The translations under genes were made by a program, and so were the position numbers. From an uncultured candidatus Porisulfidus sp. (GTDB taxonomy: Bacteria > Pseudomonadota > Gammaproteobacteria > Poriferisulfidales > Poriferisulfidaceae): DNA of 64,000 bases. This document shows, piece by piece, positions 3,938 through 51,807 of this stretch. The DNA is taken from NCBI GenBank assembly GCA_965221375.1, contig OZ244883.1, forward strand, positions 64,071 to 128,070, written 5' to 3'. Each line of letters opens with the position of its first letter. Position 1 is the first letter of the stretch. Below the pieces are notes generated by a model. The model worked only from the letters and a program-made list of their open reading frames with translations, was not told the DNA's origin and searched no databases.

Positions 3938-5137
3938 TCAACCCGTCGCCGTCAAAGGCGACACATCCGGCATGGAGGACGACATTTTCCACAACGACCG
4001 GTCCTCACGGGAAGGATCCAGAAAATATTGCTCCGAAGGCTCCACCTGCTCCAGCGCCCGCAACAGGCTGCGGTAATGTTGCGGGTTCAGGGCAAGATTG
4101 GTGTGCGTGGTGTCCACCGTCAACAAGGTTCCCGCGTACGAGTGGAAATAGTCCCGCATCAAAGTCGACAGGCGCTCCAAAAATTCCGGCTGCACGCTTC
4201 GTTCATACGATCGGTTGCGCGCCGAGATACGCTCCATCAGTGTCGGCACCGGCGCCTGCAGATAAATCACCAGGTCCGGACGCGGCAGTCCGGATAGCAT
4301 GTGGGCATACAGATTCAACCACAAGTCGTATTCATCGGCACGCAATGCCAATTGCGAAAACCAGTCGCTTTTCTCCGGCATGAAATCCGAAAACACCCGT
4401 TGTCGAAACAGGCGGTCGTGATCCAGTTGCCGCAGTTGCTCCGTGCGGCTGGTCAGGAAATGCAGCTGCACCGCCAGCGCACTTTCATCCGGAAATTTAA
4501 AGAATCGTTCCAAAAAGGGATTGTCACGATATTTCTCCAACATCAGCTGACCGTCGAACTCGCCCGCCAGACGATTGCACAGAGTCGTCTTGCCCACCCC
4601 CATCGGCCCTTCCACCACCACGAATTGGATCTCGTCCGGCAAGCGGCAACAGGAGTCGATCCGCTCCACATGAGCGTATTTGCACTGCTGCAGTAACTGC
4701 CCGACCGAACCATGCCCTGGCACCTCCAGTCCCACATCCAACTCCTGCAGAGGCGCCAGCACGAAGGCCCGCTCGTGGGCGCCCGGATGCGGCAACGTCA
4801 GACGGTCGTCGGCACGTTGCTCCTGGCCCCACAGCAACAAATCCAGATCCAATGTGCGCGAGGCCCAGTGTTCGTGTTCTTCTTCCCGGCCATGCGCCCG
4901 TTCGATTTCCTGCATTGCGTCCAGCAACTGCTCCGGACTCAGCTCGGTCTCCACCTGCACCACGGCGTTGATGTAATCCGGCTGCACCCTATCTCCCATG
5001 GGCGGACTTTGATACAGACCGGAGACTGCACGCAGCCGCACTCCCGGCAGGGCCTCCAATTCGCGTACCGCCCCACGCACTTGTTGGACGGGGTCGTCCA
5101 GGTTGCTCCCCAGCCCGATGTAGATTCCTGTCTCCAC
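3938..5137 (-). CDS. folK: bifunctional fusion: 6-hydroxymethyl-7,8-dihydropterin pyrophosphokinase (HPPK) joined to a deoxynucleoside kinase domain
   Basis: The first ~160 aa are HPPK-like (IYIGLGSNLDDP...LPHPGAHERAFVLAPL). The second half has the P-loop VVVEGPMGVGKTTL and the dNK/dGK-type family pattern. It is one continuous ORF of 399 aa. Confidence 0.75.
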   Translation of the reverse strand: METGIYIGLGSNLDDPVQQVRGAVRELEALPGVRLRAVSGLYQSPPMGDRVQPDYINAVVQVETELSPEQLLDAMQEIERAHGREEEHEHWASRTLDLDLLLWGQEQRADDRLTLPHPGAHERAFVLAPLQELDVGLEVPGHGSVGQLLQQCKYAHVERIDSCCRLPDEIQFVVVEGPMGVGKTTLCNRLAGEFDGQLMLEKYRDNPFLERFFKFPDESALAVQLHFLTSRTEQLRQLDHDRLFRQRVFSDFMPEKSDWFSQLALRADEYDLWLNLYAHMLSGLPRPDLVIYLQAPVPTLMERISARNRSYERSVQPEFLERLSTLMRDYFHSYAGTLLTVDTTHTNLALNPQHYRSLLRALEQVEPSEQYFLDPSREDRSLWKMSSSMPDVSPLTATG

Positions 5138-10336: not shown

Positions 10337-10410
10337 GCGGGTGTAGTTCAATGGCAGAACTTCAGCTTCCCAAGCTGATAACGAGGGTTCGATTCCCTTC
10401 ACCCGCTCCA
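10337..10410 (+). tRNA. tRNA-Gly (anticodon CCC)
   Basis: GCGGGTGTAGTTCAATGGCAGAACTTCAGCTTCCCAAGCTGATAACGAGGGTTCGATTCCCTTCACCCGCTCCA folds as a cloverleaf with a 7-bp acceptor stem, a CCC anticodon and an encoded CCA. It is nearly identical to the glyU-type tRNA. Confidence 0.85.
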
Positions 10411-28285: not shown

Positions 28286-30298
28286 TTACAGTAGCGGCGC
28301 GATTACCAGGCTTACGATCGCCATCACGTTGATCAGAATGTTCATGGACGGTCCGGACGTGTCCTTGAACGGATCACCCACCGTATCGCCCACCACACAC
28401 GCATGGTGTGCATCCGAACCTTTCCCGCCATGATGGCCGCGTTCGATGTACTTCTTGGCGTTGTCCCAGGCACCACCGGCATTGGCCATCATCAAGGCCA
28501 GCAACACGCAGCCCAACAACGCACCACCGAGCATGCCGCCCAGTGATTCCGGGCCCAGTCCAAAACCGACCACGACCGGGGCAACGACCGCCAAGGCACC
28601 CGGAGGCGCCATGCGCCACAGTGCCGCGCGCGTTGCAATATCCACACAGCGCACCGTATCCGGTTTGGCGGAACCTTCCAGCAGTCCGGGGATTTCCTTG
28701 AACTGCCGGCGAATTTCCTGAATCATCTCAAACGCGGCATCCCCGACCGCCGACATGGTCATTGCGGCCACCAAAAACGGAAACACCCCGCCGATGAACA
28801 GCCCGATCAAGACCCGCGGATCGTTCAGTTGCAATTGGATGGAACCTCCGTGCCCATGGCTGACTTCCGCAAGAAACGCCGTGATGATCGCCAACGCCGC
28901 CAGCGCCGCCGCACCAATTGCAAAACCCTTACCAATCGCCGCCGTGGTATTACCGACCTCATCCAAGGTATCCGTAATCCGCCGCGTCTCTTCACCCAAC
29001 TCCGCCATCTCTGCGATGCCTCCGGCGTTGTCCGCGACCGGGCCGTAGGCATCAATCGCCATTGTGATTCCGACGGTCGCCAACATCCCGACCGCCGCGA
29101 TGCCCACGCCGTAAAGGCCTGCTGAGAGGTGTGAAAAATAGATGATCGCCGCAATGGACAACACCGGTATCGCAACCGAGCGCATGCCGGTCGCCAATCC
29201 GCGGATCATGACGGTCGCAGAACCGGTTTCAGCGGCCTCGGCAATGCGTTTGACCGGATTGCCGGCGGTGAAATACTCGGTCACCAAACCGATGATGATT
29301 CCTCCAATCGCTCCCGACAGCACCGCAATCCAGATGCCGAACGCCAGTTCCAGCAAATGCACCGCCAAATACGACGCCCCGATAAACAGTACCGCCGCAC
29401 CAAACGTGCCCATCCGCAACGCCACTTCGGGCTTGGACTGGACGCGGATGCGCACCAGCAAGATGCCCAGAATGGAACAGATCATGCCAATCGACGCCAT
29501 CCCCAAAGGCAGGAACATCAATGTCGCCTGCGGACCTAAACCCATTAATTCCGCTGCCGGCAACGCCGAGGCCAAGGCAATCGTCGCGATGATCGACCCG
29601 CAATAAGACTCAAAAATATCGGACCCCATGCCGGCGACATCGCCGACGTTGTCGCCGACGTTGTCCGCAATTACCCCGGGGTTACGGGGATCGTCTTCCG
29701 GAATGCCGGCTTCGATTTTTCCGACCAGATCCGCGCCCACGTCGGCGCATTTGGTGTAAATGCCGCCTCCGACACGGGAGAACAATGCCACCGAAGAGGC
29801 GCCCATGCCAAACCCGTGAATAATGTTGGCGGTCTCAGGGTCCTGCCCGAAAATCAGATACAGCGCACCCAGCCCCAGCAATCCGACGGCTGCGATGGTC
29901 AGGCCCATGATGGACCCTCCGTAGAACGCCAGCGACAACGCGGTCGGCGCCCCGGCCATATTGGCGGCTACTGCCGTGCGCACATTTGCGCGAGTCGCCG
30001 TGTACATCCCGATGAAACCGGCCAATGAAGAGCAAAACGCGCCGGTCAAGAACGCCGCCATGGTGTTCACGCCCAAATCGGACAGCGCCACCGCCACCGC
30101 CACGACGGCCACAAACACATACATCACAAAGTATTCGCGACGCATAAACGTCATCGTGCCCTGTTGGATTTCGCGAGCGATCTCCGCCACACGGCCATGT
30201 CCGGCCGGGTAACGCAAAATAATGCGATACAGAATGAAAGCGGCCAGCAAGCCGACCGCGCCAAGTACCAAGGGTGTTTGTTCCAGGGTGGTATTCAA
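28286..30298 (-). CDS. hppA: membrane-bound proton-translocating pyrophosphatase
   Basis: 670 aa with [18 protein letters not shown] and DNVGDNVGD signature motifs. Confidence 0.9.
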
Positions 30299-30331: not shown

Positions 30332-30562
30332 TCAGCCGCCGGTGACGGGTGGGAAAAAGGCGATTTCATCGCCGTCTTCAATGAGGGTATCGAAAGGCGC
30401 ATAGCGACCATTGACGGCCGCACGTACTGTGGCATCCGGTTCTTGCTGGGTTTGGGTCCGCCAGACATCCCACACCGTGCTTAAGTCGTTTTTGGATACC
30501 TCCGCGCTTCCATAACCGATCTGGTCACGCAAGCTGGAGAAAAAAAGAACCGTGATACTCAC
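30332..30562 (-). CDS. moaD: MoaD/ThiS-family sulfur-carrier protein
   Basis: 76 aa from a GTG start, ending ...DGDEIAFFPPVTGG, the canonical MoaD C-terminus. Confidence 0.5.
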   Translation of the reverse strand: MSITVLFFSSLRDQIGYGSAEVSKNDLSTVWDVWRTQTQQEPDATVRAAVNGRYAPFDTLIEDGDEIAFFPPVTGG

Positions 30563-30767
30563 AAGCAACACACTCAAAACTGATGCTAATTTTACCCGCC
30601 TTGACCCTTCGCAGCCTATAAAGGGAATTATAAAGACCACTTGCCAAGCCTCTGGCATGTCAGTTTCAAAAGTTTTCTGCGGAATTTACAGCTCCGGATG
30701 TTGGGCCGGAGTATTTCGGAACCACACAGCTTCTGCAGATACTGCAACAAACGACTATAATAGGATC

Positions 30768-30827
30768 CTACCCCCCTTGTGGTTTCGGCCGCTTGGTGCG
30801 GAGCCTCTTCGGAGGCTCCTGCTTTTT
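30768..30827 (+). ncRNA. candidate small RNA, array copy 1 (C-rich 5' end, intrinsic terminator)
   Basis: Runs from the predicted transcription start 7 nt after the TATAAT box to the end of the U tract. The sequence is conserved across the copies more strongly than the upstream region. Confidence 0.35.
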
Positions 30828-30954
30828 AAGCAGGCCTCGTTCGTGCCAGGTTTCAAAAATTTTCTGCGGAATTTACAGCCCCGGATGTGGTGACAGGGTG
30901 TCCCGGGACCAAACAACTCCTGAAAATACTGCCACAAACGACTATAATAGAGCC

Positions 30955-31015
30955 TCACCCCCCTTGTGGTTTCTTGCCGCTTGGTGCGGAGCCTCTTCGG
31001 AGGCTCCTGCTTTTT
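30955..31015 (+). ncRNA. candidate small RNA, array copy 2
   Basis: Same architecture as copy 1. Confidence 0.35.
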
Positions 31016-31142
31016 CAAGCATCCCTTTTTCTGCCAAGCTACGAAATTTTTCTGCAGGATTTACAGCCCCGGATATTGCGACAGAGTATTTCGAAGTCGA
31101 ACGGCTCTTGAATATACTGCAGCGAACTGCTACAATAAATTT

Positions 31143-31203
31143 CAACCCCCCTTGTGGCTTCTGGCCGCTTGGTGCGGAGCCTCTTCGGAGGCTCCTGCTT
31201 TTT
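31143..31203 (+). ncRNA. candidate small RNA, array copy 3
   Basis: Same architecture as copy 1, with a TACAAT -10 box. Confidence 0.35.
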
Positions 31204-31330
31204 AAGCAGGCCTCTTTCGCGCCAAGTTTCGAATTTTTTCTGCAGAATTTACAACCCCGGATGTTCCGGCGAGATGTTTTGGGACCAAACAACCCTTGCA
31301 GATACTGCGACAAACGACTACAATAGCACC

Positions 31331-31390
31331 CTACCCCCCTAGCGGTTTCGGCCGCAGGATGCGGAGCCTCCTCGGGGGCTCCTGCTTTTT
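31331..31390 (+). ncRNA. candidate small RNA, array copy 4; its terminator ends 15 nt before the NYN gene start
   Basis: Same architecture as copy 1. The hairpin carries a wobble-preserving change (CUCG loop, U-G pair). Confidence 0.35.
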
Positions 31391-31404
31391 CATGATGAGC
31401 AAAA

Positions 31405-32028
31405 ATGCGCACGGCCGTCTATGTAGACGGGTTCAATCTGTACTACGGGGCACTAAAGAACACGAATTTTAAGTGGTTGGATTTGGTGGCGCTGTTTGAG
31501 AAGATTCTCGCACCTCACCATCAAATCGTCGCAGTCAAATACTTCACGGCCAGAGTCTCGGAAACAGACCGAAACCCGTTAGCACCTCGGCGCCAAGACA
31601 TTTACCTGCAGGCACTGTGCCACTACCGGCCGCACGTAAAGGTGTATTTTGGACACTTTTTGACCAATCGCGTCCGAATGCCACTCGCACAGCCGATCAA
31701 AAACCCGCACATAGTGAAAGTGATAAAAAGGGAGGAAAAAGGCTCGGACGTGAATCTTGCCGTGCATCTCTTGAATGACAGCTGGCTGGACCTCTATGAC
31801 TGTGCGGTAGTAGTGAGTAGCGACAGTGACCTTGCGGAAGCGATGCGCCTGACCAAGGAACAGCATGGCAAGCACATTGGTTTGTTAACTCCGGGCCACC
31901 GCCGCACATCCATGCGATTGGAAAAACATGCCCACTTCATACGACACATACGAGAAAGCGCATTATCAAAGTCGCAGCTTCCAGACCCAATCCCCGGCAC
32001 GAGCCTCAACAAGCCTGAAAGTTGGTAG
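31405..32028 (+). CDS. NYN-domain (LabA-like) predicted ribonuclease
   Basis: MRTAVYVDGFNLYYGA... with conserved Asp residues (VVSSDSDL) of the PIN-like NYN fold. GC is about 51%. Confidence 0.7.
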   Translation: MRTAVYVDGFNLYYGALKNTNFKWLDLVALFEKILAPHHQIVAVKYFTARVSETDRNPLAPRRQDIYLQALCHYRPHVKVYFGHFLTNRVRMPLAQPIKNPHIVKVIKREEKGSDVNLAVHLLNDSWLDLYDCAVVVSSDSDLAEAMRLTKEQHGKHIGLLTPGHRRTSMRLEKHAHFIRHIRESALSKSQLPDPIPGTSLNKPESW

Positions 32029-32107
32029 GGTAATCGGTCGAACACCGAAGCATCGCGGACGCAATGGAACAAATTTGCTCTGGATTAAGGCCGGCGCCCT
32101 GAAGATC

Positions 32108-33037
32108 TTATTGGCCGTACTGCGTTTGATACTCTTGAACAAGATCCGCCTTACGAAACCCCGGAACCGCCGTCGCTGTTCGCAGCGCCAAATTTTCATA
32201 GTCAATATTCAACAAGCGCTCGCGCACGATCGCTTGTTGGCCGGTTGCCGATGTGACGGAAAATAGCATCCACTGTTTATTCCGTTCACAGTTCGCCGCT
32301 TCCGTCTCGCGACGCCGATAGTCCTGCCAACCCTGGCAGGGCACCGCAAAATCAAAAGGCTGATCAAAAACTTTCAGGGCTCCTTGCGTGTTGTTGTATT
32401 GCCGAATTTCAAAGTGAGGATGAGTGATTGGCAAGGGCTGAAACAGCCGCTGATTCTCAAGATTACAAGGGCTGCGCGTCCAAACCTGAAACTCCGTATT
32501 GACAGCATAAGGATTGCCATTGGCCAGGCGAAATGCTTTGCGAGGCAGCGTCTTGCGACAGATTAATTGCAGATCGCTGTCCAGTTGCTTGTGAATAGCG
32601 AACTTGCGAAAACACACCGGCACAATAAAGGCGACCGTATCGGCCACTTGCGCTGCCTGATTGACAAACGCGACCGCCAGTTTTCCGCGTGCACCGAATG
32701 GAGGATTGCCAATCACCACGCGCTGCCTTTTAGGGGTCGACAATTGCGCCGGCTCCCACACCAGAAAATCCTGTGCGCAGACGCCCGCACAATGAGGCAT
32801 CAGATCCAGGCCGGTGCGTCGATCTTTCGGCAGCAAGTCAAAAAACGCCCCATCCCCCGCTGCCGGCTCAATAAACCAAATCTGCTTTGGATCGACCGGC
32901 AACACATTCAGTAAAGTCGCAAAACAGTCCGCCGCAACGGCGGGACTCGTATAAAACTGGTCCAATCGCCGCCGGAAATCCATGTTTGACTGTGTACCGC
33001 CTACTTTTGGCATGTTGTTTAATCCCGATATTTCCAA
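32108..33037 (-). CDS. gamma-class N6-adenine-type methyltransferase (probable DNA MTase)
   Basis: Motif I FIEPAAGDGAFF and motif IV VIGNPPFG, 309 aa. Convergent with the NYN gene. Confidence 0.55.
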   Translation of the reverse strand: MEISGLNNMPKVGGTQSNMDFRRRLDQFYTSPAVAADCFATLLNVLPVDPKQIWFIEPAAGDGAFFDLLPKDRRTGLDLMPHCAGVCAQDFLVWEPAQLSTPKRQRVVIGNPPFGARGKLAVAFVNQAAQVADTVAFIVPVCFRKFAIHKQLDSDLQLICRKTLPRKAFRLANGNPYAVNTEFQVWTRSPCNLENQRLFQPLPITHPHFEIRQYNNTQGALKVFDQPFDFAVPCQGWQDYRRRETEAANCERNKQWMLFSVTSATGQQAIVRERLLNIDYENLALRTATAVPGFRKADLVQEYQTQYGQ

Positions 33038-33094: not shown

Positions 33095-34687
33095 TTGTAT
33101 TCTTCGCAAATCAACAAAGACTCCCTGATGCAGAATCTTGAGATCAATCCCCAATTTGCACGGGCACTGGAATCTCTGGAGCACGGCGACAAGCCATTGT
33201 TGATTACCGGCAAGGCCGGCACCGGGAAATCGACATTGCTGGAACATTTCCGCACTCATGCCGACACCACCCCGGTCGTGCTCGCACCCACGGGGGTAGC
33301 CGCGCTCAATGTGCGAGGACAAACCGTGCACCGGTTTTTTGAATTCCGCCCGGGTATTACCCCGGAAAAAATTCGCACATCCAAACGCAAACTGCGTCAA
33401 CCCGAACTGTACAAAAAACTGACCACGATCATTGTCGACGAAGCTTCCATGCTGCGGGCGGATGTGCTGGACTGCATCGATGTCTTTCTGCGCAAACACG
33501 GGCCCACCTCAAACCAGCCTTTCGGTGGCGTGCGCATGGTTTTTGTGGGAGACCTTTACCAACTGCCTCCCGTCGTCACCAAGGACGAAAGGGAAATCTT
33601 CAAGACGTTTTATAAAACTCCTTACTTTTTCAGTGCCCATGCCTTGGAAGATCTGCAGATCGACATCATCGAATTGCTGAAAGTCTATCGCCAGCGCGAT
33701 GCGGAATTCATTGAGCTTTTGGACCGCATCCGCAAGAACACAACCGAAGCGGAAGACCTGGATCGCATCAACAGCCTGGTCGATGAGCACTTTGATCCTT
33801 CGGACGAGGACTTTTATCTCACTTTAACCGCCACCAATCATCGTGCAGACCGAATCAACCGGCATTATTTGGATGCCTTGCCCGGCAAGCCTCAAATGGC
33901 ACTGGCGGATGTCCAGGGTGAATTCAAAAGCAGTGATTTCCCCACCGATGAAGAGTTGATGTTCAAGGAAGGTGCGCGCATCATGCTGCTGAACAATGAT
34001 GGGCGCGGTCGCTGGGTCAACGGCAGCATCGGGCAGATTTTGGAGGTCACCCATAATGACGACGACGAACCCTTGATCGTTGTACAACTGTATAAGCCTG
34101 AAAAGATTGTGGAGGTGAGCCCCCACACTTGGGAAGTCACACGTTTTTACCTGGATGGCAAAAAAATCGGCACCGAGACAGTCGGTCGATTCAAGCAGTT
34201 GCCGTTCCGCCTGTCATGGGCCGTCACCATTCACAAAAGCCAAGGCAAGACTTTCGACCGCCTGATTTTTGATTTGGATCGCCCTGCTTTTGAATACGGG
34301 CAGACGTATGTGGGGCTGAGCCGATGCACTTCCTTTGAAGGGATTGTGTTGCGCCGGCCCATCTCCGCTTCTTCCATCCGTACGGATCGACGGGTTCAGA
34401 AATTTGTGACCGGCTACCACTACCGGCGCTCGGAAGAGGAAATGCCGTTGGAGAAAAAGGTTGAAAAAATTCGCACCGCCATCGCAACCGAATCCTCGCT
34501 AGCCATCACTTATTTGAAAGCCAACGACACGCAAAGTGAACGTACGATCAAACCGGAGAGAGTCGGCCCACACTTATACGACGACCGCGAATTCCTTGGA
34601 GTCAGCGGATTCTGTTTGCTGCGTCAAGCCAATCGCTCTTTCCGGGTAGACCGCATCCTTAAATTGGAGATCGTCTCCAACGCATAA
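33095..34687 (+). CDS. PIF1/RecD2-like SF1B helicase with a C-terminal WYL-like domain
   Basis: Walker A ITGKAGTGKST, IVDEASML, VGDLYQLPPV, TIHKSQGKTFD and YVGLSRCTS. The C-terminus ...FCLLRQANRSFRVDRIL resembles WYL. Confidence 0.7.
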   Translation: MYSSQINKDSLMQNLEINPQFARALESLEHGDKPLLITGKAGTGKSTLLEHFRTHADTTPVVLAPTGVAALNVRGQTVHRFFEFRPGITPEKIRTSKRKLRQPELYKKLTTIIVDEASMLRADVLDCIDVFLRKHGPTSNQPFGGVRMVFVGDLYQLPPVVTKDEREIFKTFYKTPYFFSAHALEDLQIDIIELLKVYRQRDAEFIELLDRIRKNTTEAEDLDRINSLVDEHFDPSDEDFYLTLTATNHRADRINRHYLDALPGKPQMALADVQGEFKSSDFPTDEELMFKEGARIMLLNNDGRGRWVNGSIGQILEVTHNDDDEPLIVVQLYKPEKIVEVSPHTWEVTRFYLDGKKIGTETVGRFKQLPFRLSWAVTIHKSQGKTFDRLIFDLDRPAFEYGQTYVGLSRCTSFEGIVLRRPISASSIRTDRRVQKFVTGYHYRRSEEEMPLEKKVEKIRTAIATESSLAITYLKANDTQSERTIKPERVGPHLYDDREFLGVSGFCLLRQANRSFRVDRILKLEIVSNA

Positions 34688-34830: not shown

Positions 34831-36345
34831 ATGACAGACTGTCGCCCCACTATCCTGGTCGTCTTGGACGGCGTCGGCATCAACCCGGATGTGCAGCACA
34901 ACGCTTTGGCCCAGGCGCACACTCCGAACTTGGATGCATTGTTTGCCGAAGGCGCTTTCACCACATTAAATGCCAGTGGCCCCGCAGTGGGTTTGCCCGA
35001 AGGCCAGATGGGCAACTCGGAAGTCGGTCACGTCATCATGGGTTGCGGAGATATTGTGCTGCAGGATCTGATGCGGATTGACGAAAGTATTCAAGACGGC
35101 TCGTTTTATGAAAACCCCGTTTTGCGCGATGCCATACGTGAGACGCTCGCGCGTCGCAGTCGACTGCACTTGCTGGGCCTTGTATCGGATGGCGGCGTGC
35201 ACTCGCACATTACCCACTTGCTGGCTCTGATTGAACTGAGTCGCCGCGAGGGAGCGCAGCCGCACGTGCATATGATTACGGATGGTCGTGACGTGCCCCC
35301 GCGTTCCGCTTTGCAGTGGTTGCCGGATGTTGAAGATGCCCTGGATAAAGCGGGAGGTGCGATTGATACGGTGTGCGGACGCTACTATGCGATGGACCGC
35401 GACCGCCGTTGGAGCCGCACCCAGCGGGCTTTCGATGCTATTGCCCACAACCGCGGCCACACCGCACCCAATGCCCGCGCCGCCATTGAACAGGCCTATG
35501 CTCAAGATTTGGGTGATGAATTTATCGAGCCGACGGTTATGCCGACTGCCGCTCCTTTGGCAGAAGGGGATATCGGCATATTTTTCAATTTCCGCAACGA
35601 CCGACCTCGTCAGTTGGCCGAAAGTCTGAACACCGCGATTTTTAGCGAATTTGACCGGGGCGCGTACACCCCTATGAAGCTGGTCACCATGACCGAGTTC
35701 CACCCGGATTACGATGCGCCCATCGCGTTTGAAGAAAAGGTGCCCTCTATTACCTTGGCGGAGATCCTCAGCCAGCAAGGTATTCCTCAATTACGTTGTG
35801 CGGAGACGGAAAAATACCCGCACGTCACTTTCTTCTTCAATGGGGGGCGCGAAAAACCGTGGCCGGGCGAGCAGCGGGTGATGTTGCCTTCACCGGATGT
35901 CGCCACCTACGACCTTTGTCCGCAGATGAATGCGGAAGGTGTCGCGGATGCGGTCGTCGATGCCATTCACAGTCGCCAGTACGGCTTCATTCTTGTGAAC
36001 TTCGCCAATGCTGACATGGTGGGACACACGGCACAGCAGAGCGCCATTATCCAGGCGATTGAAGCGCTTGATGTTCAGGTCGGACGTATTGTTGAGGCTG
36101 CCCGTGCACAGGACATGGCGCTTATTTTGACGGCCGACCATGGTAATTGCGACGAGATGGTCGATGCAGAAGGTCAGCCGCACACCCAGCATACGATGCA
36201 TCCCGTGCCCTGCGTTGTGCAGGACGGCACCGCGCATGAATTACGCGCGGATGGCGGCTTGGGTAACGTTGCCCCGACCGTATTGGATCTGATGGGTTTA
36301 GAAAAACCGCCGGAAATGCGGCAGTCGAGTTTGCTGGTTCACTGA
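34831..36345 (+). CDS. gpmI: 2,3-bisphosphoglycerate-independent phosphoglycerate mutase
   Basis: 504 aa iPGM with the metal-binding Ser region ...NSEVGH.... Core-like GC. Confidence 0.9.
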   Translation: MTDCRPTILVVLDGVGINPDVQHNALAQAHTPNLDALFAEGAFTTLNASGPAVGLPEGQMGNSEVGHVIMGCGDIVLQDLMRIDESIQDGSFYENPVLRDAIRETLARRSRLHLLGLVSDGGVHSHITHLLALIELSRREGAQPHVHMITDGRDVPPRSALQWLPDVEDALDKAGGAIDTVCGRYYAMDRDRRWSRTQRAFDAIAHNRGHTAPNARAAIEQAYAQDLGDEFIEPTVMPTAAPLAEGDIGIFFNFRNDRPRQLAESLNTAIFSEFDRGAYTPMKLVTMTEFHPDYDAPIAFEEKVPSITLAEILSQQGIPQLRCAETEKYPHVTFFFNGGREKPWPGEQRVMLPSPDVATYDLCPQMNAEGVADAVVDAIHSRQYGFILVNFANADMVGHTAQQSAIIQAIEALDVQVGRIVEAARAQDMALILTADHGNCDEMVDAEGQPHTQHTMHPVPCVVQDGTAHELRADGGLGNVAPTVLDLMGLEKPPEMRQSSLLVH

Positions 36346-36413
36346 GTCGGTTTGTTTCTTGCTTGTTGTCAAAATGTCTGGGTTTCACAGTTTTGAAGTC
36401 TCTAAAATCTGCA

Positions 36414-36908
36414 TCAATCACAAGCATCCGCATTTACTCGTAGATATTCGTTGATAAATTGGTCTGTATACTCGGAAACATATTGCAGAATAAATCCACC
36501 ATCTCCGCCGTGGGTTCCAGTGCCCCCACTGTTCCATATTGCCGCGGAGCCGTAACCAAGTGTTGGTCTGCGTACTAAAGTTATGAAATCAAAGGATATG
36601 CTATACCCTCTCCCAACAACATTCACATTCACGTATATCCAAAATTCAGCTCCGATGAGGTCAGAATCGTAAATTCCAGCCACTCTTAATCTGCTTTCTA
36701 CGGCAGTCTGGATCCTTTCTTTTGTCAAACCAATTTCTTTCGCGTCCTCGGGTAACTCTTCCACAGCCAAGCCAATTGGTTGACAATCGTTCCATAGCTT
36801 GAACCTGTCACGAACGCTCACTTCTTCCGTCGCCCATGTCGGCGTCCCGGCTAGCACCATCAGAAACAGGGCGCATCTAATTCGACTATGGGAATAAGGC
36901 GATTTCAT
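36414..36908 (-). CDS. secreted hypothetical protein (signal peptide)
   Basis: 164 aa with an N-terminal signal peptide, in low-GC DNA between the two copies of the gpmI 3' end. Confidence 0.4.
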   Translation of the reverse strand: MKSPYSHSRIRCALFLMVLAGTPTWATEEVSVRDRFKLWNDCQPIGLAVEELPEDAKEIGLTKERIQTAVESRLRVAGIYDSDLIGAEFWIYVNVNVVGRGYSISFDFITLVRRPTLGYGSAAIWNSGGTGTHGGDGGFILQYVSEYTDQFINEYLRVNADACD

Positions 36909-37092
36909 GGCTAATTATCAAACGTTCTTTTAGTTGAAGGTAGTCGATTAGCGGTGTAGATACCAAACCATTCCCTACAGCCGACATGATTATCTCACAA
37001 AAATTAAACTGGAAAACTTGTCATGACTGCACTCTAATTATTGAATGATTATTTTCTGTCGCAAATCAAGTTCTAGGATTCTGTCAGAAATT

Positions 37093-37333
37093 ATAGAGAA
37101 AGAGAAACGGCCGACCACGGTAATTGTGATGAGATGGTCAATGTGAAAGGTCAGTCGCATGCTCGACATACGATGCATCCCGTGCCCCGCGTTGTATAGG
37201 ATGGCTCCCCGCATGAATTACGCACGGACAGTGGTTTGGGCAACGTTGCCCCCACCGTATTGGATTTGATGGGCTTAGAAAAACCGCCGGAAATGCGGCA
37301 GTCGAGTTTGCTAATTCACTGAGTTGGTTTGTG
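37093..37333 (+). pseudogene. decayed duplicate of the gpmI 3' end (about 85% identical to 36129-36356), an attachment-site-like island boundary
   Basis: An ungapped, eye-aligned nucleotide match over about 235 bp. It carries an in-frame TAG where the intact copy has CAG and lacks the upstream part of the gene. Confidence 0.7.
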
Positions 37334-37387
37334 ATGTGATAGGGAATTATTAAGGGGTTTATATATTTAAATTTTGTCGAAGATGGC

Positions 37388-38590
37388 CTATAACTGCAGT
37401 TTAGCGCGGAGGTATTCCATCCCTCTATCGCCCTTGATCTTATTACAGGAACCACAAAGCAGTTGTAAGTTTTCCAAATGGTCAGTTCCTCCTTTCCCTT
37501 TCGCAATTATGTGGTCGATCTCAAGGTGTCGAGCTTCAAAATGTGTGTGGCAACCTGCGCAGTTTCCTTCTTGCTCTCCATAAAGTTTGCGTTTGTTTTC
37601 CGCACAATTGTAGGGCGGTAATTTGCCCACGTCCGTGCGCTGGGGAATGTCCGTGCGGTGCACAATATCGCGGAACAGACCCTGCCGTTCTTCAATGCGA
37701 CGTACCACCAGTTCCGCTGCTTTCTCCGATATGTCGATGCCAACCCATTGCCGTTGCAGATTGTCTGCTGCGACCAGCGTGGTTGCACAACCGCAGAATG
37801 GATCTAAGACCACATCATCGGGATTGCTTGACGCCTCAATAATGCGTTTTAGCAAGGCAAGAGGCTTCTGGGTTGGGTATATCTGTTTCACTGGCGGCAC
37901 ACGCTTAATTGGCCACACATCATCCTGCCTTACTCCGGCAGATTTGCCTTTTGTTGTCGAGGGGATACGATTTCCATACTCATCGTGTCCGGAAACTATT
38001 TTCCCCTCACCAAATCTTTTTTGCGTAGACTCAGCCCGGGGCATATAGAGTTGATTAAATTGTCGTTCTTTTCCTTCCTTACCATAAAAGAGAACGACAT
38101 CATGGTTGCGTTGAAATTGGTATTTCCCCGAAGACCATTTTCGATAATGCCATACCACTTCATTACGGAAATATCTCTTCCCGAAAATCGCGTCCATCAC
38201 CAGTTTTAGGTGGTGGCTCATAGTTGGATCACAATGGAGATAGACTGATCCTGCCGGTTTCAATATTCTGTGTATTTCTAATATTCTGACCGCCATATAA
38301 ATCAAGTAAGACTTGTCTGATTTGCTCATGGCCGCAAGAATAATGCGGTGCAGTTTCGGATGCTTTGCTTCTACCAAGTCGAGCCACGCTACGTCTACAT
38401 CGCGTAATGTCCAAGTATCCTTGAATGCGGCTCCTGCCGCCTTACTTCCGATAGGCGCAGCGTAATCGTGCTTTGAATTAAACGGCGGATCAAGATAAAT
38501 CAGGTCAACCGTCTCAGAATTCATGCCTCGCATGATATCGAGATTGTCGCCCGTCCAGATGGTTCTAGACTTCCAGTTTGGCTCGGCCAC
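37388..38590 (-). CDS. DNA methyltransferase (beta-class, DPPF) fused to a C-terminal HNH endonuclease domain
   Basis: Motif IV IYLDPPFN, motif I VVLDPFCGCATT and the HNH segment CAGCH...HLEIDHIIAKGKGGTDHLENLQLLCGSCNKIKG. Confidence 0.7.
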   Translation of the reverse strand: MAEPNWKSRTIWTGDNLDIMRGMNSETVDLIYLDPPFNSKHDYAAPIGSKAAGAAFKDTWTLRDVDVAWLDLVEAKHPKLHRIILAAMSKSDKSYLIYMAVRILEIHRILKPAGSVYLHCDPTMSHHLKLVMDAIFGKRYFRNEVVWHYRKWSSGKYQFQRNHDVVLFYGKEGKERQFNQLYMPRAESTQKRFGEGKIVSGHDEYGNRIPSTTKGKSAGVRQDDVWPIKRVPPVKQIYPTQKPLALLKRIIEASSNPDDVVLDPFCGCATTLVAADNLQRQWVGIDISEKAAELVVRRIEERQGLFRDIVHRTDIPQRTDVGKLPPYNCAENKRKLYGEQEGNCAGCHTHFEARHLEIDHIIAKGKGGTDHLENLQLLCGSCNKIKGDRGMEYLRAKLQL

Positions 38591-38693
38591 GCGCTAATCC
38601 TCGTCAAAATTCATGGAAATTATTGTGTGTTGCTCTGGGCGGCGACATCCATTTTACGCATGAAAGAATCCCAAGTATTCGAGGTTTCCATCT

Positions 38694-39539
38694 TCACAAA
38701 TTTCTTCTGAGTTGCCCAAGTCGATTCTCGAGATTAGATCGAAGAGCATCCAACCCTTCCCCGTTATTTAGATACTTAATATGACGTATATGACCAAGGT
38801 CAAATGGAACGTCCTCACTGTTCTGGGTGATCAAAATAACTTCCCGTCCAAGTGTGTGGGCAATACCTATCTCATAAAAAACATTTGAGTTCTTTTTAGT
38901 GCAGTCGCAAATTACCACAAAAGACTTATCTATCAGCGCCACTATATCTTGAATAATTGCCGAACTTTCCCAAATTTGATCTGCGCGGCGACTTTCCATT
39001 CCAACGTTTTGAACCGCTTTTTCAATTTCTCTATATACCACGTCAAAATCAGCACCGAATGGCATCATGGTAGATGCAAGAGTCGAATCTATATCTTCAT
39101 TTTCGGAAACAGTGAACACCTTCGGGCCTTTCCTGAGAGGCATAGAAACGCTGAGCAGTGTTCGAAACAAATCAATGTCCTTGACCGCCCAATGCGTCCT
39201 CGAGAACTCCCACCTGTCTGACATGCCAAAATCAAACTTTTTCCCGAATATTACGCTGTTTGGGATCGGCTTTATGGCAGAGGCAAAAGAGTAATCGATA
39301 GATATTTCTGCTCCATCTTTTCGTACTTGCGTTATTTCACCAACGTGGGCAAGCTGTGTGTTGCTTGTACCTTCCCGCATGAATAGACAGGGGAGTTTGC
39401 GAAGTTCCTCGTAGAGAATTCCATCGCCACCTTGAAACTGTGCTTTTACATTATCCTCAGTGTATTCAAAAAGGCGCTCTAAAAGAACTGACCCCCTCCC
39501 GTTTTCCCATGGTAAGCCTTTACAAAGGAGGTTATACAT
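38694..39539 (-). CDS. hypothetical protein with a C-terminal nucleoside 2-deoxyribosyltransferase-like / TIR-like domain
   Basis: The C-terminal pattern FVVICDCTKKNSNVFYEIGIAHTLGREVILI matches the NDT-like fold motif (vvA.l.....D.GT.fE.G.A...gK.vi). The N-terminal domain is unknown. Low GC. Confidence 0.45.
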   Translation of the reverse strand: MYNLLCKGLPWENGRGSVLLERLFEYTEDNVKAQFQGGDGILYEELRKLPCLFMREGTSNTQLAHVGEITQVRKDGAEISIDYSFASAIKPIPNSVIFGKKFDFGMSDRWEFSRTHWAVKDIDLFRTLLSVSMPLRKGPKVFTVSENEDIDSTLASTMMPFGADFDVVYREIEKAVQNVGMESRRADQIWESSAIIQDIVALIDKSFVVICDCTKKNSNVFYEIGIAHTLGREVILITQNSEDVPFDLGHIRHIKYLNNGEGLDALRSNLENRLGQLRRNL

Positions 39540-39790
39540 TAGGTGATTTACGCTCTCAGCCGCGGTGTTTTCCTTCGGAGCCTTTGATTGGCTTACTCAA
39601 GCTGATTTAAGATAATAACGAAAGGGTTATTATAGATACCATCTCTTTTGCGAACAGGCCGGAGCCACCAAGCAAAAGCATATCTGACGAAATTTCCGTA
39701 GTAGATTAAGGAAGGGTATAAAGATGCATTGACAGACTGGAAAACACGAGCGGTCTTCGTGTCTGTATGACCCGTTCTTATGGCGTTGAT

Positions 39791-40276
39791 TTACAAAGAA
39801 AGAGAAAACGATCCGTCCGGACCGTTATAGATGAAGAGGCAGCGCTGCAGAACGTCTCGGCCAATAAGAGCGATAAGGCCCTGCGGGGCCAAGTGTGCCC
39901 CGTAGGCTCTCTGCACAACCAAATTAATGGGGAAATTTGCAAAATCAAATGCACCTGCATAGACAGGAACAACCTCCGCCTTGTGGGTCGCTGATGTCAT
40001 TTTCCCGCTATCGACGATGACAAGTCCCGCACGCTTGGCCGCCTCTTGGTCAACACACGTGTTCACTGCCCCCGTATCAATAAGCGCAAACCCACTGACG
40101 GGTTCCGGCATGGCACCTTCCTTTTCAGCTATGGCTTTTGCGTGCTCTTCCAGAGGAGTCAACGTCAACTGCACTAGTGGCCCTGCCTGTTGAAGACTAC
40201 CCCCAGGCGAAAGAGAAGTGGTTTTACCCTCGGCATCCTTCTTCTCGGCTTGAAGCTTTGCGTTAAGAATTGGCAA
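39791..40276 (-). CDS. retropepsin-like (clan AA) aspartic protease
   Basis: ALIDTGAVNTCV carries the D-T-G catalytic motif flanked by hydrophobic residues, 161 aa. Confidence 0.5.
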   Translation of the reverse strand: MPILNAKLQAEKKDAEGKTTSLSPGGSLQQAGPLVQLTLTPLEEHAKAIAEKEGAMPEPVSGFALIDTGAVNTCVDQEAAKRAGLVIVDSGKMTSATHKAEVVPVYAGAFDFANFPINLVVQRAYGAHLAPQGLIALIGRDVLQRCLFIYNGPDGSFSLSL

Positions 40277-51267: not shown

Positions 51268-51807
51268 TTATGGATTGCTCATCTTTTTGAGCGCGCGATC
51301 GGTAATGTCGATGCGTTTGCTGGCAAACAGCGTGACGGCTTGAGTCAGAACCAGGTCGAAGCCGTCTGCCTTGGCAATCTCGAGTACGGTTTCCTTGACC
51401 TGTTGCTGCAGTTTGCTGAGCTCCTCATTGCGGCGGATGGACAAGTCCTCCCGGACTTCATCGCGCTCACGCTCAAAATCACGGCGGCGACGCTGAATTT
51501 CCCGCTCCAGTTCCGTGCGCCGTTCTTCCGACATCACGTCGCTTTCCTTTGCCAACTGTTGCTCCAGCTCAGTGAACTCCTCGTGCAACTTCTCCAACTG
51601 TTCGTTGCGCGGCGCAAATTCATTTTGCAGTTTTTGCCGGGCCGCGACCGCTTGCGGAGAGTCCTCCATCAGACGCCCCACGTCCACAAAGCCGATCTTG
51701 ATGTTTTGCCCCCACGCCAACTGGCTTACCGCCAGCAGCGCAATCCCCAAAGCGCGAGCCGTAAAAGTAACAGAGTGATTCATAGTAGAGCCAAGTTTGA
51801 AGGGCAT
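51268..51807 (-). CDS. skp: periplasmic chaperone Skp (OmpH)
   Basis: Signal peptide plus a coiled-coil Glu/Lys/Arg-rich body; sits between bamA and lpxD. Confidence 0.75.
   Translation of the reverse strand: MPFKLGSTMNHSVTFTARALGIALLAVSQLAWGQNIKIGFVDVGRLMEDSPQAVAARQKLQNEFAPRNEQLEKLHEEFTELEQQLAKESDVMSEERRTELEREIQRRRRDFERERDEVREDLSIRRNEELSKLQQQVKETVLEIAKADGFDLVLTQAVTLFASKRIDITDRALKKMSNP

What the first reader, a model, noticed from the sequence alone, without database searches (positions are those of the whole stretch)
30650..32028. Tandem array of four self-contained promoter / C-rich RNA / terminator units immediately upstream of a NYN-domain RNase gene
Four direct repeats with a period of 187-188 bp. 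Each has a near-consensus -10 box (TATAAT or TACAAT). About 7 nt downstream sits a roughly 60-nt segment, CUACCCCCCUUGUGGUUUCGGCCGCUUGGUGCGG. It ends in the hairpin GGAGCCUC-UUCG-GAGGCUCC followed by UGCUUUUU, a textbook intrinsic terminator with a UUCG tetraloop.

The putatively transcribed segment is clearly better conserved between copies than the DNA upstream of the -10 box. In copy 4 the stem carries changes (loop CUCG, U-A to U-G) that keep the pairing. Both observations argue for a structured RNA rather than a protein-coding or neutral repeat.

An additional conserved upstream element, TTCTGCGGAATTTACAGCCCCGGATGT, with a partial palindrome TTCTGC(A/G)GAA, precedes every copy and could be a regulator-binding site. 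The last terminator ends 15 nt before the start codon of a NYN-domain (PIN-like) predicted RNase. The whole block is lower-GC DNA between hppA/moaD and gpmI.

I see two readings:
- a family of paralogous, independently transcribed sRNAs in the manner of Qrr, PrrF or RsmX, with a C-rich stretch that could act as an anti-Shine-Dalgarno seed;
- a repeat-RNA plus RNase module laid out like a type III toxin-antitoxin system (repeats, then a terminator, then an endoRNase), but with a NYN nuclease and much longer repeat units than ToxI-type antitoxins.

I do not recognise this arrangement from any described system.
Basis: partly seen in the sequence, partly recalled or inferred. Interest (0 to 1): 0.85.

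Follow-up and report, generated by a model that had tools for sequence, protein, structure and literature searches.

The report
Amplified small-RNA partner of NYN RNase
The four repeats are four intact copies of an apparently undescribed small structured RNA gene that sits next to the same NYN-type RNase gene (the phage-defence candidate HEC-09) in many other bacteria, plasmids and prophages, a layout that resembles an RNA-antitoxin/RNase-toxin pair and can be tested directly in natural E. coli mini-plasmids.

Summary
There are four 187-188-bp units at 30650-31400. Each has a sigma-70-type promoter, a ~58-nt two-hairpin RNA and an intrinsic terminator, and the last terminator ends 14 nt before a NYN gene.

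The main result is comparative. The RNA is a conserved partner of this NYN family (PADLOC HEC-09).
- RNA side: 57 of 74 assessable metagenomic copies have a HEC-09-type NYN ORF starting 11-40 nt downstream.
- NYN side: all 4 loci of close homologs, 36 of 53 proviral loci by covariance model (10 more by eye) and 8 of 8 sampled annotated records carry the RNA.

Both hairpins covary strongly. The C-run pairs as the 5' arm of hairpin 1, so it is not a free anti-SD seed. Rfam has no matching family, and the HEC-09 paper does not mention an RNA.

[quoted passage not shown] The antitoxin function itself is inferred, not shown.

The window's amplification of the whole RNA gene is unusual. Only one of 85 other RNA-side loci has even two full copies.

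The parts
30650..30837 (+). Repeat unit 1 (box + promoter + RNA gene + terminator)
   Evidence: TRF; alignment A1
30671..30699 (+). Upstream box, unit 1 (TTTTCTGCGGAATTTACAGCTCCGGATGT). Lineage-specific conserved element of unknown function.
30733..30761 (+). Promoter, unit 1: CTGCAG-17 nt-TATAAT
   Evidence: read; same geometry as the family promoter
30770..30827 (+). RNA copy 1 (~58 nt): +1 A, hairpin 1, linker, terminator hairpin 30800-30819, U5
   Evidence: CM R1 76.8 bits; fold; terminator scan
30838..31024 (+). Repeat unit 2
30858..30886 (+). Upstream box, unit 2
30920..30948 (+). Promoter, unit 2: CTGAAA-17 nt-TATAAT
   Evidence: promoter scan
30957..31015 (+). RNA copy 2; terminator hairpin 30988-31007
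   Evidence: CM R1 66.0 bits
31025..31212 (+). Repeat unit 3
31046..31074 (+). Upstream box, unit 3
31108..31136 (+). Promoter, unit 3: TTGAAT-17 nt-TACAAT
   Evidence: promoter scan
31145..31203 (+). RNA copy 3; terminator hairpin 31176-31195
   Evidence: CM R1 73.5 bits
31213..31400 (+). Repeat unit 4
31234..31262 (+). Upstream box, unit 4 (contains the perfect palindrome TTCTGCAGAA)
31296..31324 (+). Promoter, unit 4: TTGCAG-17 nt-TACAAT. The only promoter from which NYN can be reached across a single terminator.
   Evidence: read
31333..31390 (+). RNA copy 4; terminator hairpin 31363-31382 (CUCG loop, U-G pair); hairpin 1 has a bulged A
   Evidence: CM R1 67.9 bits
31405..32028 (+). NYN-domain RNase gene, 207 aa, HEC-09 family. 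No promoter of its own and no obvious SD. Acidic motifs VDGFN, EKGSDVN and SDSD are intact.
   Evidence: Pfam NYN; PADLOC HEC-09 E = 9.9e-45 over the full length; invariant columns of A2
32108..33037 (-). Neighbour: type II DNA methyltransferase-like ORF (context only; not shown to belong to the module)
   Evidence: PADLOC MTase_II E = 1e-42
33095..34687 (+). Neighbour: PIF1-like SF1 helicase with a C-terminal WYL domain (context only; not shown to belong to the module)
   Evidence: Pfam; PADLOC

Best explanation
Each of the four units is a complete gene for a ~58-nt structured RNA. The RNA starts at a conserved A and has three or four free nucleotides. Then comes hairpin 1, whose base is the C-run paired to a G-run. 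A (C/U)GC linker follows, then a GC-rich terminator hairpin and a U-tract.

This RNA is the conserved partner of the HEC-09-type NYN RNase encoded directly downstream. In the ordinary family form, one promoter drives the RNA, most transcripts stop at the terminator, and only read-through reaches the promoter-less NYN ORF. RNA is therefore made in large excess over the RNase.

I propose that the RNA, through hairpin 1, binds and holds the NYN RNase inactive. That would make it a type III-like RNA antitoxin, with the RNase released when RNA supply fails, for example on phage-induced host shut-off or plasmid loss.

In this genome the whole RNA gene (box, promoter, RNA, terminator) was amplified to four copies long ago and all four have been maintained. 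That raises and buffers the RNA dose, while NYN remains reachable essentially only by read-through from unit 4.

Shown: the repeat anatomy, the promoter geometry, the RNA structure with covariation, the RNA-NYN linkage, and the variant arrangements. Inferred: RNA-protein binding, NYN toxicity, neutralisation, and any defence or addiction role.
For: Identity and structure:
- The four units score 66-77 bits against a covariance model built mostly from other loci.
- On 73 non-redundant sequences, 97.7% of cells are paired against 38-58% when the partners are slid.
- On 26 sequences retrieved through the NYN protein, and so not selected by the RNA pattern, 96.3% are paired against 40-52% slid, 16 of 19 pairs have compensatory double changes, and all 9 hairpin-1 pairs covary. 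RNAalifold predicts the same structure.

Own promoter: TAnnnT starts at -27 +/-1 in 54 of 71 loci and TTG[AC] at -50/-51, which places +1 on the conserved A. The window units fit.

Linkage:
- 57 of 80 metagenomic RNA hits have a HEC-09-type NYN ORF starting 11-40 nt after the motif. That is 57 of 74 once 4 truncated contigs and 2 chance matches are removed.
- All NYN homologs fetched by protein identity carry the RNA.
- 36 of 53 proviral NYN loci (30-59% identity) carry it by covariance model, and 10 more by eye.
- All 8 sampled annotated plasmid or prophage loci carry it.

Trans-acting partner rather than a mere leader:
- The RNA gene is convergent with NYN in L228-230 and in M. abscessus prophage prophiGD43A-1, and divergent in L237. 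Each has its own promoter.
- Promoter-bearing orphan copies score as high as linked ones.
- A T7-like phage carries an intact copy (76.6 bits) without NYN.

Type III-like layout:
- E. coli ColE1-type mini-plasmids have one promoter, four ~33-nt hairpin-1 repeats, one terminator, then NYN. The same locus is on 17 plasmids.
- L273 has 2-3 tandem ~53-nt modules and L214 has a co-transcribed dimer.
- These match the published locus plan of type III systems (PMC3401426).

Cargo pattern: the family is on 456 plasmids, including 3.5-5-kb ones where it is nearly the only cargo, and it sits in defence or mobile contexts.

Selection on all four window copies: RNA 0.91 and promoter 0.83 identity against spacers 0.33-0.59.
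Against: - No experiment shows that this NYN protein is toxic or that the RNA binds or neutralises it.
- HEC-09, cloned with its native upstream region, gave no defence against the phages tested (bioRxiv 10.1101/2024.01.29.577857).
- The common family form has one RNA copy, not repeats. The consensus is two simple nested hairpins, not the pseudoknot of ToxI-type antitoxins.
- The NYN fold is unrelated to ToxN, CptN or TenpN.
- The second hairpin is an ordinary terminator and could be nothing more than that.
- Orphan copies could be decay products. Some retain NYN remnants.
- The phage copy is a single example and may serve the phage simply as a terminator.
- The window's hairpin 1 has internal mismatches (U.U pairs or a bulged A), and its NYN lacks an obvious SD.
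Confidence: 0.5

Rival explanations
1. The RNA is a purely cis-acting leader or attenuator. The hairpin-plus-terminator segment exists only to throttle transcription into a dangerous RNase gene, possibly with NYN binding or cleaving hairpin 1 of its own leader for autoregulation. It has no function as a free RNA. The window array would then be a stack of duplicated leader cassettes.
For: In most loci the element lies in the 5' leader position 11-40 nt before the NYN start, and NYN has no promoter of its own. The terminator is strong. From my own knowledge, NYN/PIN-like RNases such as Regnase-1 recognise stem-loops, including ones in their own mRNA.
Against: - Convergent (L228-230, L269) and divergent (L237) arrangements place the RNA outside the NYN mRNA but keep it adjacent, with its own promoter.
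- Units 1-3 of the window, both copies in L140, and about 15 orphan copies are leaders of nothing, yet they keep promoter and structure.
- Hairpin-1-only repeats in L268 make no sense for a simple attenuator.
- The phage copy has no NYN gene.
Confidence: 0.2
2. The RNA is a positive cofactor of the NYN protein rather than its inhibitor: a scaffold, specificity subunit or infection sensor that forms an active ribonucleoprotein. Amplification in the window would boost activity rather than restrain it.
For: The same linkage, co-diversification and stoichiometry data apply, because they show partnership but not its sign. HEC-09 gave no defence phenotype in a heterologous host, which leaves the mode of action open.
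Against: - Loci that kept the RNA but lost NYN are found. In the loci I examined, NYN homologs above about 39% identity almost always have the RNA. That asymmetry is what an antidote predicts, although a cofactor would also be kept.
- A phage carrying the RNA alone is easier to explain as a decoy antidote than as an activator of a host nuclease.
- The locus plan copies known RNA-antitoxin systems.
Confidence: 0.2
3. The units are sibling trans-acting base-pairing sRNAs in the manner of Qrr, PrrF or LhrC. Their C-rich 5' end would act as an anti-Shine-Dalgarno seed on mRNAs elsewhere, and their adjacency to NYN would be incidental.
For: There are four independently transcribed, near-identical small RNAs with a C-run near the 5' end.
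Against: - The C-run is base-paired to a conserved G-run, and the stem it opens covaries across about 100 sequences.
- The RNA is tied to NYN genes across phyla, plasmids and prophages, which a host-specific regulon sRNA would not be.
- Outside this genome it is almost always single-copy.
Confidence: 0.05
4. The array is a neutral tandem duplication of a promoter-terminator cassette, with no current function for the extra copies.
For: Tandem duplications arise easily. The hairpin 1 copies in the window carry mismatches and score lower than typical family members.
Against: The spacers have decayed to 33-59% identity while the RNA, promoter and upstream box of every copy stay at 83-91%. All four copies still score 66-77 bits.
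Confidence: 0.05

Closest known systems
Type III toxin-antitoxin / abortive-infection loci (ToxIN, CptIN, TenpIN)
   Same: The locus plan is a constitutive-type promoter, a non-coding RNA, an intrinsic terminator that sets the RNA:toxin ratio, and a promoter-less endoRNase gene (definition in PMC3401426). Some members (E. coli and Klebsiella mini-plasmids L268 and L273; L214) have short tandem RNA repeats in one transcript. Like ToxIN, the module is carried on small plasmids, on prophages and in defence islands.
   Different: The protein is a NYN (PIN-like) metallonuclease, not a Kid/MazF-like ToxN, CptN or TenpN. The usual RNA is a single two-hairpin unit whose second hairpin is the terminator itself, and no pseudoknot is evident. 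In the window, multiplicity comes from amplifying whole genes, each with its own promoter and terminator, at a 188-bp period instead of 31-60 nt. Neutralisation is untested.
HEC-09 (Hma-embedded candidate 09; PADLOC-DB; Payne et al., bioRxiv 10.1101/2024.01.29.577857)
   Same: The window's NYN protein matches the HEC-09 model over its full length (E = 9.9e-45). The paper describes a MARF1-like NYN RNase with conserved aspartates, found inside defence systems.
   Different: HEC-09 was treated as a single-protein candidate. The paper has no occurrence of 'non-coding' or 'ncRNA' and reports no defence phenotype. The window locus is not inside a recognisable Hma system: the neighbours match generic methyltransferase and helicase models, not Hma models.
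Sibling sRNA clusters (Qrr1-5, PrrF1/2, LhrC1-5)
   Same: Several near-identical small RNAs in tandem, each with its own promoter and terminator and a C-rich motif.
   Different: In those families the conserved C-rich or seed region is accessible and pairs with mRNAs (my own knowledge). Here the C-run is the paired base of a covarying stem, and the RNA is linked to one protein gene across phyla.
Terminator-based 5' leaders (attenuators, riboswitch expression platforms)
   Same: A structured leader ends in an intrinsic terminator immediately before the regulated ORF.
   Different: There is no evident alternative antiterminator pairing. The element also occurs convergent to, divergent from, or without the gene, and as stand-alone promoter-bearing copies.
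Phage-encoded pseudo-ToxI antitoxin mimic (phage PhiTE escaping ToxIN; my own knowledge, not checked here)
   Same: A T7-like phage contig (L128) carries an intact copy of the NYN-associated RNA without the NYN gene, as expected for an antidote decoy.
   Different: It is a single metagenomic example with no functional data. In the phage the element may simply act as an inter-gene terminator.

Membership tests
Type III toxin-antitoxin system (class) | An RNA-coding element followed by an intrinsic terminator lies immediately upstream of the toxin ORF, which has no separate promoter | tested here: met
   Window: terminator 4 ends 14 nt before the NYN ATG. Family: the NYN start is 11-40 nt after the motif in 57 metagenomic loci and most proviral loci.
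Type III toxin-antitoxin system (class) | The antitoxin is an array of short tandem repeats (about 31-60 nt) within one transcript | tested here: not met
   The window units are 187-188 bp, each with its own promoter and terminator. The feature is met in other family members: L268 has four ~33-nt repeats, L273 has 2-3 ~53-nt modules, and L214 has a dimer. Most members have one copy.
Type III toxin-antitoxin system (class) | The toxin is an endoribonuclease | tested here: inconclusive
   NYN/PIN-like nuclease domain with intact acidic motifs. RNase activity and toxicity were not assayed.
ToxIN / CptIN / TenpIN families | The toxin belongs to the ToxN/AbiQ, CptN or TenpN sequence families (Kid/MazF-like fold) | tested here: not met
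   The only Pfam hit is PF01936 NYN. PADLOC assigns HEC-09.
Type III toxin-antitoxin system (class) | The RNA folds as a pseudoknot that binds the toxin, and the toxin processes the precursor | not testable with these tools
   The consensus is two nested hairpins. Tertiary contacts, binding and processing need experiments.
HEC-09 (PADLOC candidate defence gene) | The protein matches the HEC-09 profile over its full length | tested here: met
   PDLC04163, E = 9.9e-45, residues 2-207 on profile positions 3-202 of 203
HEC-09 (PADLOC candidate defence gene) | Embedded within an Hma (helicase-methylase-ATPase) system | tested here: inconclusive
   A methyltransferase-like ORF and a helicase flank NYN, but they hit generic MTase_II, PDC-S68 and RecD-like models, not Hma models, and no ATPase gene was identified.
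Any Rfam 15 RNA family | Scores against a curated covariance model | tested here: not met
   No match in 30400-32200 even at E <= 10. The whole window at gathering threshold gives only a tRNA. Ten other loci give only RNAI elsewhere on the plasmids.
Sibling base-pairing sRNAs (Qrr / PrrF / LhrC type) | A conserved single-stranded seed available for mRNA pairing | tested here: not met
   The C-run columns pair with the G-run in 95-100% of sequences, and the stem covaries.
Cis-regulatory terminator leader | Always located in the 5' UTR of the regulated gene, on the same strand | tested here: not met
   Convergent in L228-230 and L269, divergent in L237, plus promoter-bearing orphans and a phage copy.

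The most novel reading that the evidence does not exclude
The HEC-09 NYN RNase and its two-hairpin RNA form a widespread fourth lineage of RNA-antitoxin (type III-like) toxin-antitoxin or abortive-infection systems, built on a PIN-like nuclease. The RNA dose is tuned by a terminator and, in different lineages, by hairpin repeats or whole-gene amplification. Phages can counter it by carrying the RNA alone.
Probability: 0.4. Interest if true: 0.85.

Novelty: new variant of a known kind. Interest (0 to 1): 0.78.

Why it matters
HEC-09 is listed in defence-system databases as a single-gene candidate with no demonstrated activity. It appears instead to be a two-component RNA-protein module whose RNA half has been overlooked. 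In RefSeq E. coli plasmids the RNA repeats are even annotated as part of the NYN coding sequence.

The family is large. It comprises 451 clusters at 50% identity with E <= 1e-30, and it is on 456 plasmids, including 207 Klebsiella and 48 Escherichia plasmids. An RNA partner would change how these genes are cloned, assayed and interpreted.

If the RNA is an antitoxin, RNA-antitoxin systems would extend to the PIN-like/NYN nuclease fold. It would also provide a compact natural RNA hairpin-RNase pair for studying how NYN nucleases recognise RNA. The module occurs on natural 3.5-4.6-kb E. coli plasmids, so the hypothesis can be tested in the native host with routine methods.

Tried and rejected
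- My first collection scan (genome contigs) used too loose a pattern.
- Exact-protein look-ups returned only the same strain (L001 and L123, 99.98-100% identical).
- A related genome (L122, about 76% nucleotide identity across hppA) lacks the array, NYN and the helicase next to moaD.
- The search for related loci with the single NYN protein on viral contigs found nothing. The family alignment was needed.
- The weak covariance-model hits elsewhere in the window (51571-51635 at 19 bits; 30233-30297 at 14 bits) lie in coding sequence, and I treated them as chance.
- L131 and L172 are chance matches to the metagenome pattern.
- I considered the upstream box as an RNA hairpin. Candidate pairings are not consistent between the four units (read), so a DNA site is more likely.
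- blastn of the class-A RNA consensus against 50,697 sequenced phages found nothing.
- megablast of the Leptospira-type locus (L244) against E. coli genomes found nothing.
- A sequence search of the PDB found no relative of the NYN protein.
- Literature searches pairing NYN with type III TA, RNA antitoxin, anti-phage ncRNA or tandem repeats found nothing relevant.
- I did not run structure prediction. The HEC-09 paper already reports the MARF1-like NYN fold.
Full report
1. THE OBSERVATION

The array is real. Tandem Repeats Finder reports one array at 30662-31390 with period 188 and 3.9 copies. The four units (30650-30837, 30838-31024, 31025-31212, 31213-31400) align at 85% mean column identity.

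Each unit contains these parts:
- a 29-nt upstream box;
- a -35/-10 pair with a 17-nt spacer (TATAAT or TACAAT);
- a conserved A 8 nt after the -10 hexamer;
- the segment ACCCCCCU..GUGG..GCCGC..GCGG;
- the hairpin GGAGCCUC-UUCG-GAGGCUCC and a U5 tract.

The predicted ~58-nt transcripts fold into two hairpins with z-scores of -2.9 to -4.8.

The period is not a multiple of three, so the long ORFs listed across the array are artefacts.

Identity between units is uneven: RNA 0.91, box 0.91 and promoter 0.83, but 0.33-0.59 in the spacers. The duplications are therefore old, and the functional parts of every copy have been maintained.

Terminator 4 ends 14 nt before the ATG of a 207-aa NYN-domain ORF at 31405-32028. 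There is no room for a separate promoter there, and no obvious SD.

2. SURROUNDINGS

To the left lie moaD/ThiS and the H+-pyrophosphatase gene, both on the minus strand. To the right lie NYN, a type II methyltransferase-like ORF (minus strand), a PIF1-like helicase with a WYL domain, and then gpmI. GC falls from about 0.60 to about 0.52 across the block.

A related genome (L122, hppA about 76% identical at the nucleotide level) has ThiS next to an unrelated UbiA gene, with no array, NYN or helicase at that position. So the block is not part of the conserved backbone.

The host is an uncultured lineage. Its GpmI is 58-60% identical to the closest named relatives, which are sulfur-oxidising Gammaproteobacteria.

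3. WHAT THE NYN GENE IS

The protein matches the PADLOC model HEC-09 over its full length (E = 9.9e-45).

HEC-09 was described as a MARF1-like NYN RNase candidate found embedded in Hma defence systems. It gave no protection against the phages tested. The paper never mentions a non-coding RNA (bioRxiv 10.1101/2024.01.29.577857).

The family is large:
- about 8,000 close hits in one search;
- 451 clusters at 50% identity with E <= 1e-30, and 2,963 with E <= 1e-10;
- 456 plasmids, among them 207 Klebsiella, 61 Xanthomonas and 48 Escherichia.

The window protein keeps the invariant acidic motifs.

4. THE KEY RESULT: THE RNA IS A CONSERVED PARTNER OF THIS NYN FAMILY

I fetched NYN homologs of 68-71% identity from unrelated contexts, next to MmeI and type I R-M genes, SMODS, DruA, IS elements and cytochrome genes. 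Every one has a single copy of a homologous element ending 8-15 nt before its ATG.

RNA-side test. A 22-base pattern built on the RNA was scanned over the whole metagenome collection and gave 84 stretches, each with exactly one match. Of the 80 loci fetched:
- 57 have a HEC-09-type NYN ORF starting 11-40 nt after the motif;
- 4 have too little downstream sequence;
- 2 are chance matches by the covariance model.
That leaves 57 of 74 assessable copies linked to NYN.

NYN-side test. I searched viral and proviral contigs with a NYN family alignment and obtained 53 loci at 30-59% protein identity.
- The covariance model finds the RNA beside the NYN gene in 36 of them.
- Ten more show the same layout by eye and by folding: promoter, A.ACCC, hairpin, terminator, NYN.
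- Two have no upstream sequence, and four or five show nothing.

Annotated records. All eight that I sampled carry it. They are E. coli, Klebsiella, P. aeruginosa, Xanthomonas and Leptospira plasmids and an M. abscessus prophage. The 30-36% identity subfamily has a larger hairpin 1 containing GCGAUUAAGUU, but the same overall plan.

5. STRUCTURE

The consensus is: A-C-(U/A)-(C/A), then hairpin 1 (9 bp, often with a UUCG loop, its base formed by the C-run and a G-run), a (C/U)GC linker, a 10-bp terminator stem with one bulged U, and the U-tract.

- On 73 non-redundant sequences, 97.7% of cells are paired against 38-58% with slid partners. Pair 14/31 reads UA 28, GC 21, AU 11, GU 5.
- My search pattern fixed some of those columns, so I repeated the test on 26 sequences retrieved through the protein. 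There, 96.3% are paired against 40-52% slid. 16 of 19 pairs show compensatory double changes, including all nine pairs of hairpin 1. The covariation score is 0.73 against 0.23 in shuffles.
- RNAalifold predicts the same fold.

The C-run is therefore a paired stem arm, not a free seed.

The window's copies belong to the family (66-77 bits). They score below the usual 80-88 bits because hairpin 1 carries two U.U mismatches in units 1-3 and a bulged A in unit 4.

6. PROMOTER

Across 71 non-redundant loci, TAnnnT starts at -27 +/-1 from the hairpin-1 loop in 54 cases, and TTG[AC] at -50/-51. This puts +1 on the most conserved unpaired base, the A. The window's units have the same geometry.

So the RNA has its own promoter everywhere, while NYN typically has none.

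7. LEADER OR SEPARATE GENE?

Several arrangements argue that the RNA is a gene in its own right that works with NYN, not just a 5' leader.
- In L228-230 and in M. abscessus prophage prophiGD43A-1 (gene 6), the RNA gene is on the opposite strand. It is convergent with NYN, with 3' ends abutting, and has its own promoter.
- In L237 it is divergent from NYN.
- About 15 loci keep a promoter-bearing, high-scoring RNA but have no NYN, or only remnants. These remnants are the first codons in L134/L167/L202 and L155, residues 17-39 in L181, and the C-terminus in L158.
- L140 has two promoter-bearing copies beside an IS3-type transposase.
- A T7-like phage contig (L128; portal and scaffold genes identified) carries an intact copy (76.6 bits) between structural genes and has no NYN.

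8. MULTI-COPY FORMS AND THE TYPE III PARALLEL

E. coli ColE1-type 4.6-kb plasmids (L268, NZ_CP122630) have one promoter, then four tandem ~33-nt repeats of the hairpin-1 module, then one terminator (CCGCAGAUGCGG-U8), then NYN. The same locus is on 17 plasmids and in 10 complete E. coli genomes, always on plasmids. RefSeq annotates the NYN CDS as reading through the repeats.

Other multi-copy forms:
- A Klebsiella 5.4-kb plasmid (L273) has two to three ~53-nt modules before one terminator.
- L214 has two units head to tail, and the first lacks a U-tract.
- L267 appears to have two co-transcribed units.

These forms also point to hairpin 1 as the functional module.

The window reaches multiplicity by a different route, amplifying the whole gene with its promoter and terminator. 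Among 85 other RNA-side loci, only L140 has even two full genes.

9. MOST LIKELY MECHANISM

Shown: the anatomy, the structure, the promoter, the linkage and the variant arrangements.

Inferred:
- The RNA is made in large excess because most transcripts stop at the terminator.
- Read-through yields a little NYN mRNA.
- The RNA binds NYN through hairpin 1 and keeps the RNase inactive.
- Loss of RNA supply frees the RNase, for example on phage shut-off or plasmid loss.

Four maintained copies in this genome would raise and buffer the antidote dose. I put about 0.95 on 'four copies of a conserved NYN-partner RNA gene' and about 0.5 on the antitoxin mechanism.

Rivals:
- a purely cis attenuator (0.2; contradicted by the rearranged and orphan copies);
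- a positive cofactor or sensor RNA (0.2; sequence cannot decide the sign of the interaction);
- anti-SD sibling sRNAs (0.05; the seed is paired);
- neutral duplication (0.05; contradicted by the selective conservation).

10. COMPARISON WITH KNOWN SYSTEMS, AND NOVELTY

The module works like a type III TA locus but is not a member of ToxIN, CptIN or TenpIN.
- The toxin fold is NYN/PIN-like.
- The RNA is a two-hairpin unit with no evident pseudoknot.
- The window's units are independent genes.

The protein is a member of HEC-09 by its profile match.

No Rfam 15 family matches the RNA in the window, even at E <= 10, or in ten other loci. Literature searches found no paper that links NYN or HEC-09 genes with an RNA partner.

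My verdict is a new variant of a known kind. The RNA family and the RNA-NYN pairing appear undescribed, and the four-gene array is a lineage-specific elaboration of them.

11. CAVEATS

- All functional statements are inferences from sequence.
- HEC-09 showed no defence in the one published test.
- The metagenome pattern was biased toward one RNA subfamily.
- The A4 alignment is fitted to the model, although the slid-partner controls and RNAalifold agree with it.
- My genome-collection scan was wasted, so I have no census over isolate genomes.
- The window-specific upstream box remains unexplained.

Noticed in passing
window 30671-30699, 30858-30886, 31046-31074, 31234-31262: The upstream box TTTTCTGCRGRATTTACARCYCCGGATRT, with palindrome TTCTGCAGAA, lies about 70-100 nt upstream of each predicted +1. 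It is as conserved between units (0.91) as the RNA itself, but it is absent from all ~150 other loci examined. It is probably a lineage-specific regulator site. The regulator is unknown, and a WYL-domain helicase is encoded next door.
   Followed up: partly
window 36130-36355 and 37107-37332: The last ~225 nt of gpmI, including its stop codon, is duplicated about 975 nt downstream at 87% identity. The duplication brackets a small segment at the edge of a low-GC region (0.43-0.49, about 36400-39800). This looks like an att-type duplication left by integration of a mobile element into the 3' end of gpmI.
   Followed up: partly
L268 (E. coli plasmid NZ_CP122630) 1576-2400: RefSeq annotates the NYN CDS as 275 aa starting at 1576. 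That start reads through the four RNA repeats and the terminator. Homology to the NYN family begins at 1753. The annotation is probably wrong and hides the RNA array.
   Followed up: partly
L128 (IMGVR_UViG_3300040783_000021) 4418-4482, minus strand: A T7-like phage contig carries an intact copy of the NYN-associated RNA (76.6 bits) directly after the scaffold-protein stop codon, followed by a second terminator-like hairpin. It has no NYN gene. It could be an antidote decoy or a borrowed terminator.
   Followed up: partly
L140 453-517 and 816-880, minus strand: Two promoter-bearing RNA copies lie 363 bp apart, just downstream of an IS3-type transposase, with no NYN gene. At least the first is convergent with a small ORF on the opposite strand (596-814, 72 aa), whose translation looks hydrophobic by eye. 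I did not analyse these ORFs further.
   Followed up: no
L270, L271, L273, L274 (Klebsiella, Xanthomonas and P. aeruginosa plasmids), about 120 nt upstream of NYN: A distant NYN subfamily (30-36% identity), present on about 200 Klebsiella plasmids, has a larger first hairpin closed by AACCCC/GGGGU and containing the conserved motif GCGAUUAAGUU. The present covariance model does not detect this form, so it needs its own model.
   Followed up: partly
L269 (Mycobacterium phage prophiGD43A-1, MW584179) 2501-3192: In this M. abscessus prophage, gene 6 (annotated 'hypothetical protein') is a HEC-09-type NYN gene lying between the integrase/HTH genes and the immunity repressor. The RNA gene is convergent at its 3' end (53.3 bits).
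   Followed up: partly
L273 1160-1210: A long, near-perfect palindrome of about 50 nt (ccaacctgctaagctgaagtcttc/gaagacttcagcttagcaggttgg) lies upstream of the NYN-RNA promoter on the Klebsiella mini-plasmid. It gave a spurious mir-24 match in Rfam.
   Followed up: no
window 30332-30658, minus strand: The moaD/ThiS ORF as listed is 108 aa, but the ThiS domain covers only residues 37-108 and the ortholog in L122 is 76 aa. The real start is probably internal, so the moaD promoter and 5' UTR probably lie in or next to the left edge of unit 1.
   Followed up: no
window 10337-10407: A single tRNA gene (70.4 bits) is the only Rfam match at gathering threshold in the whole window.
   Followed up: no
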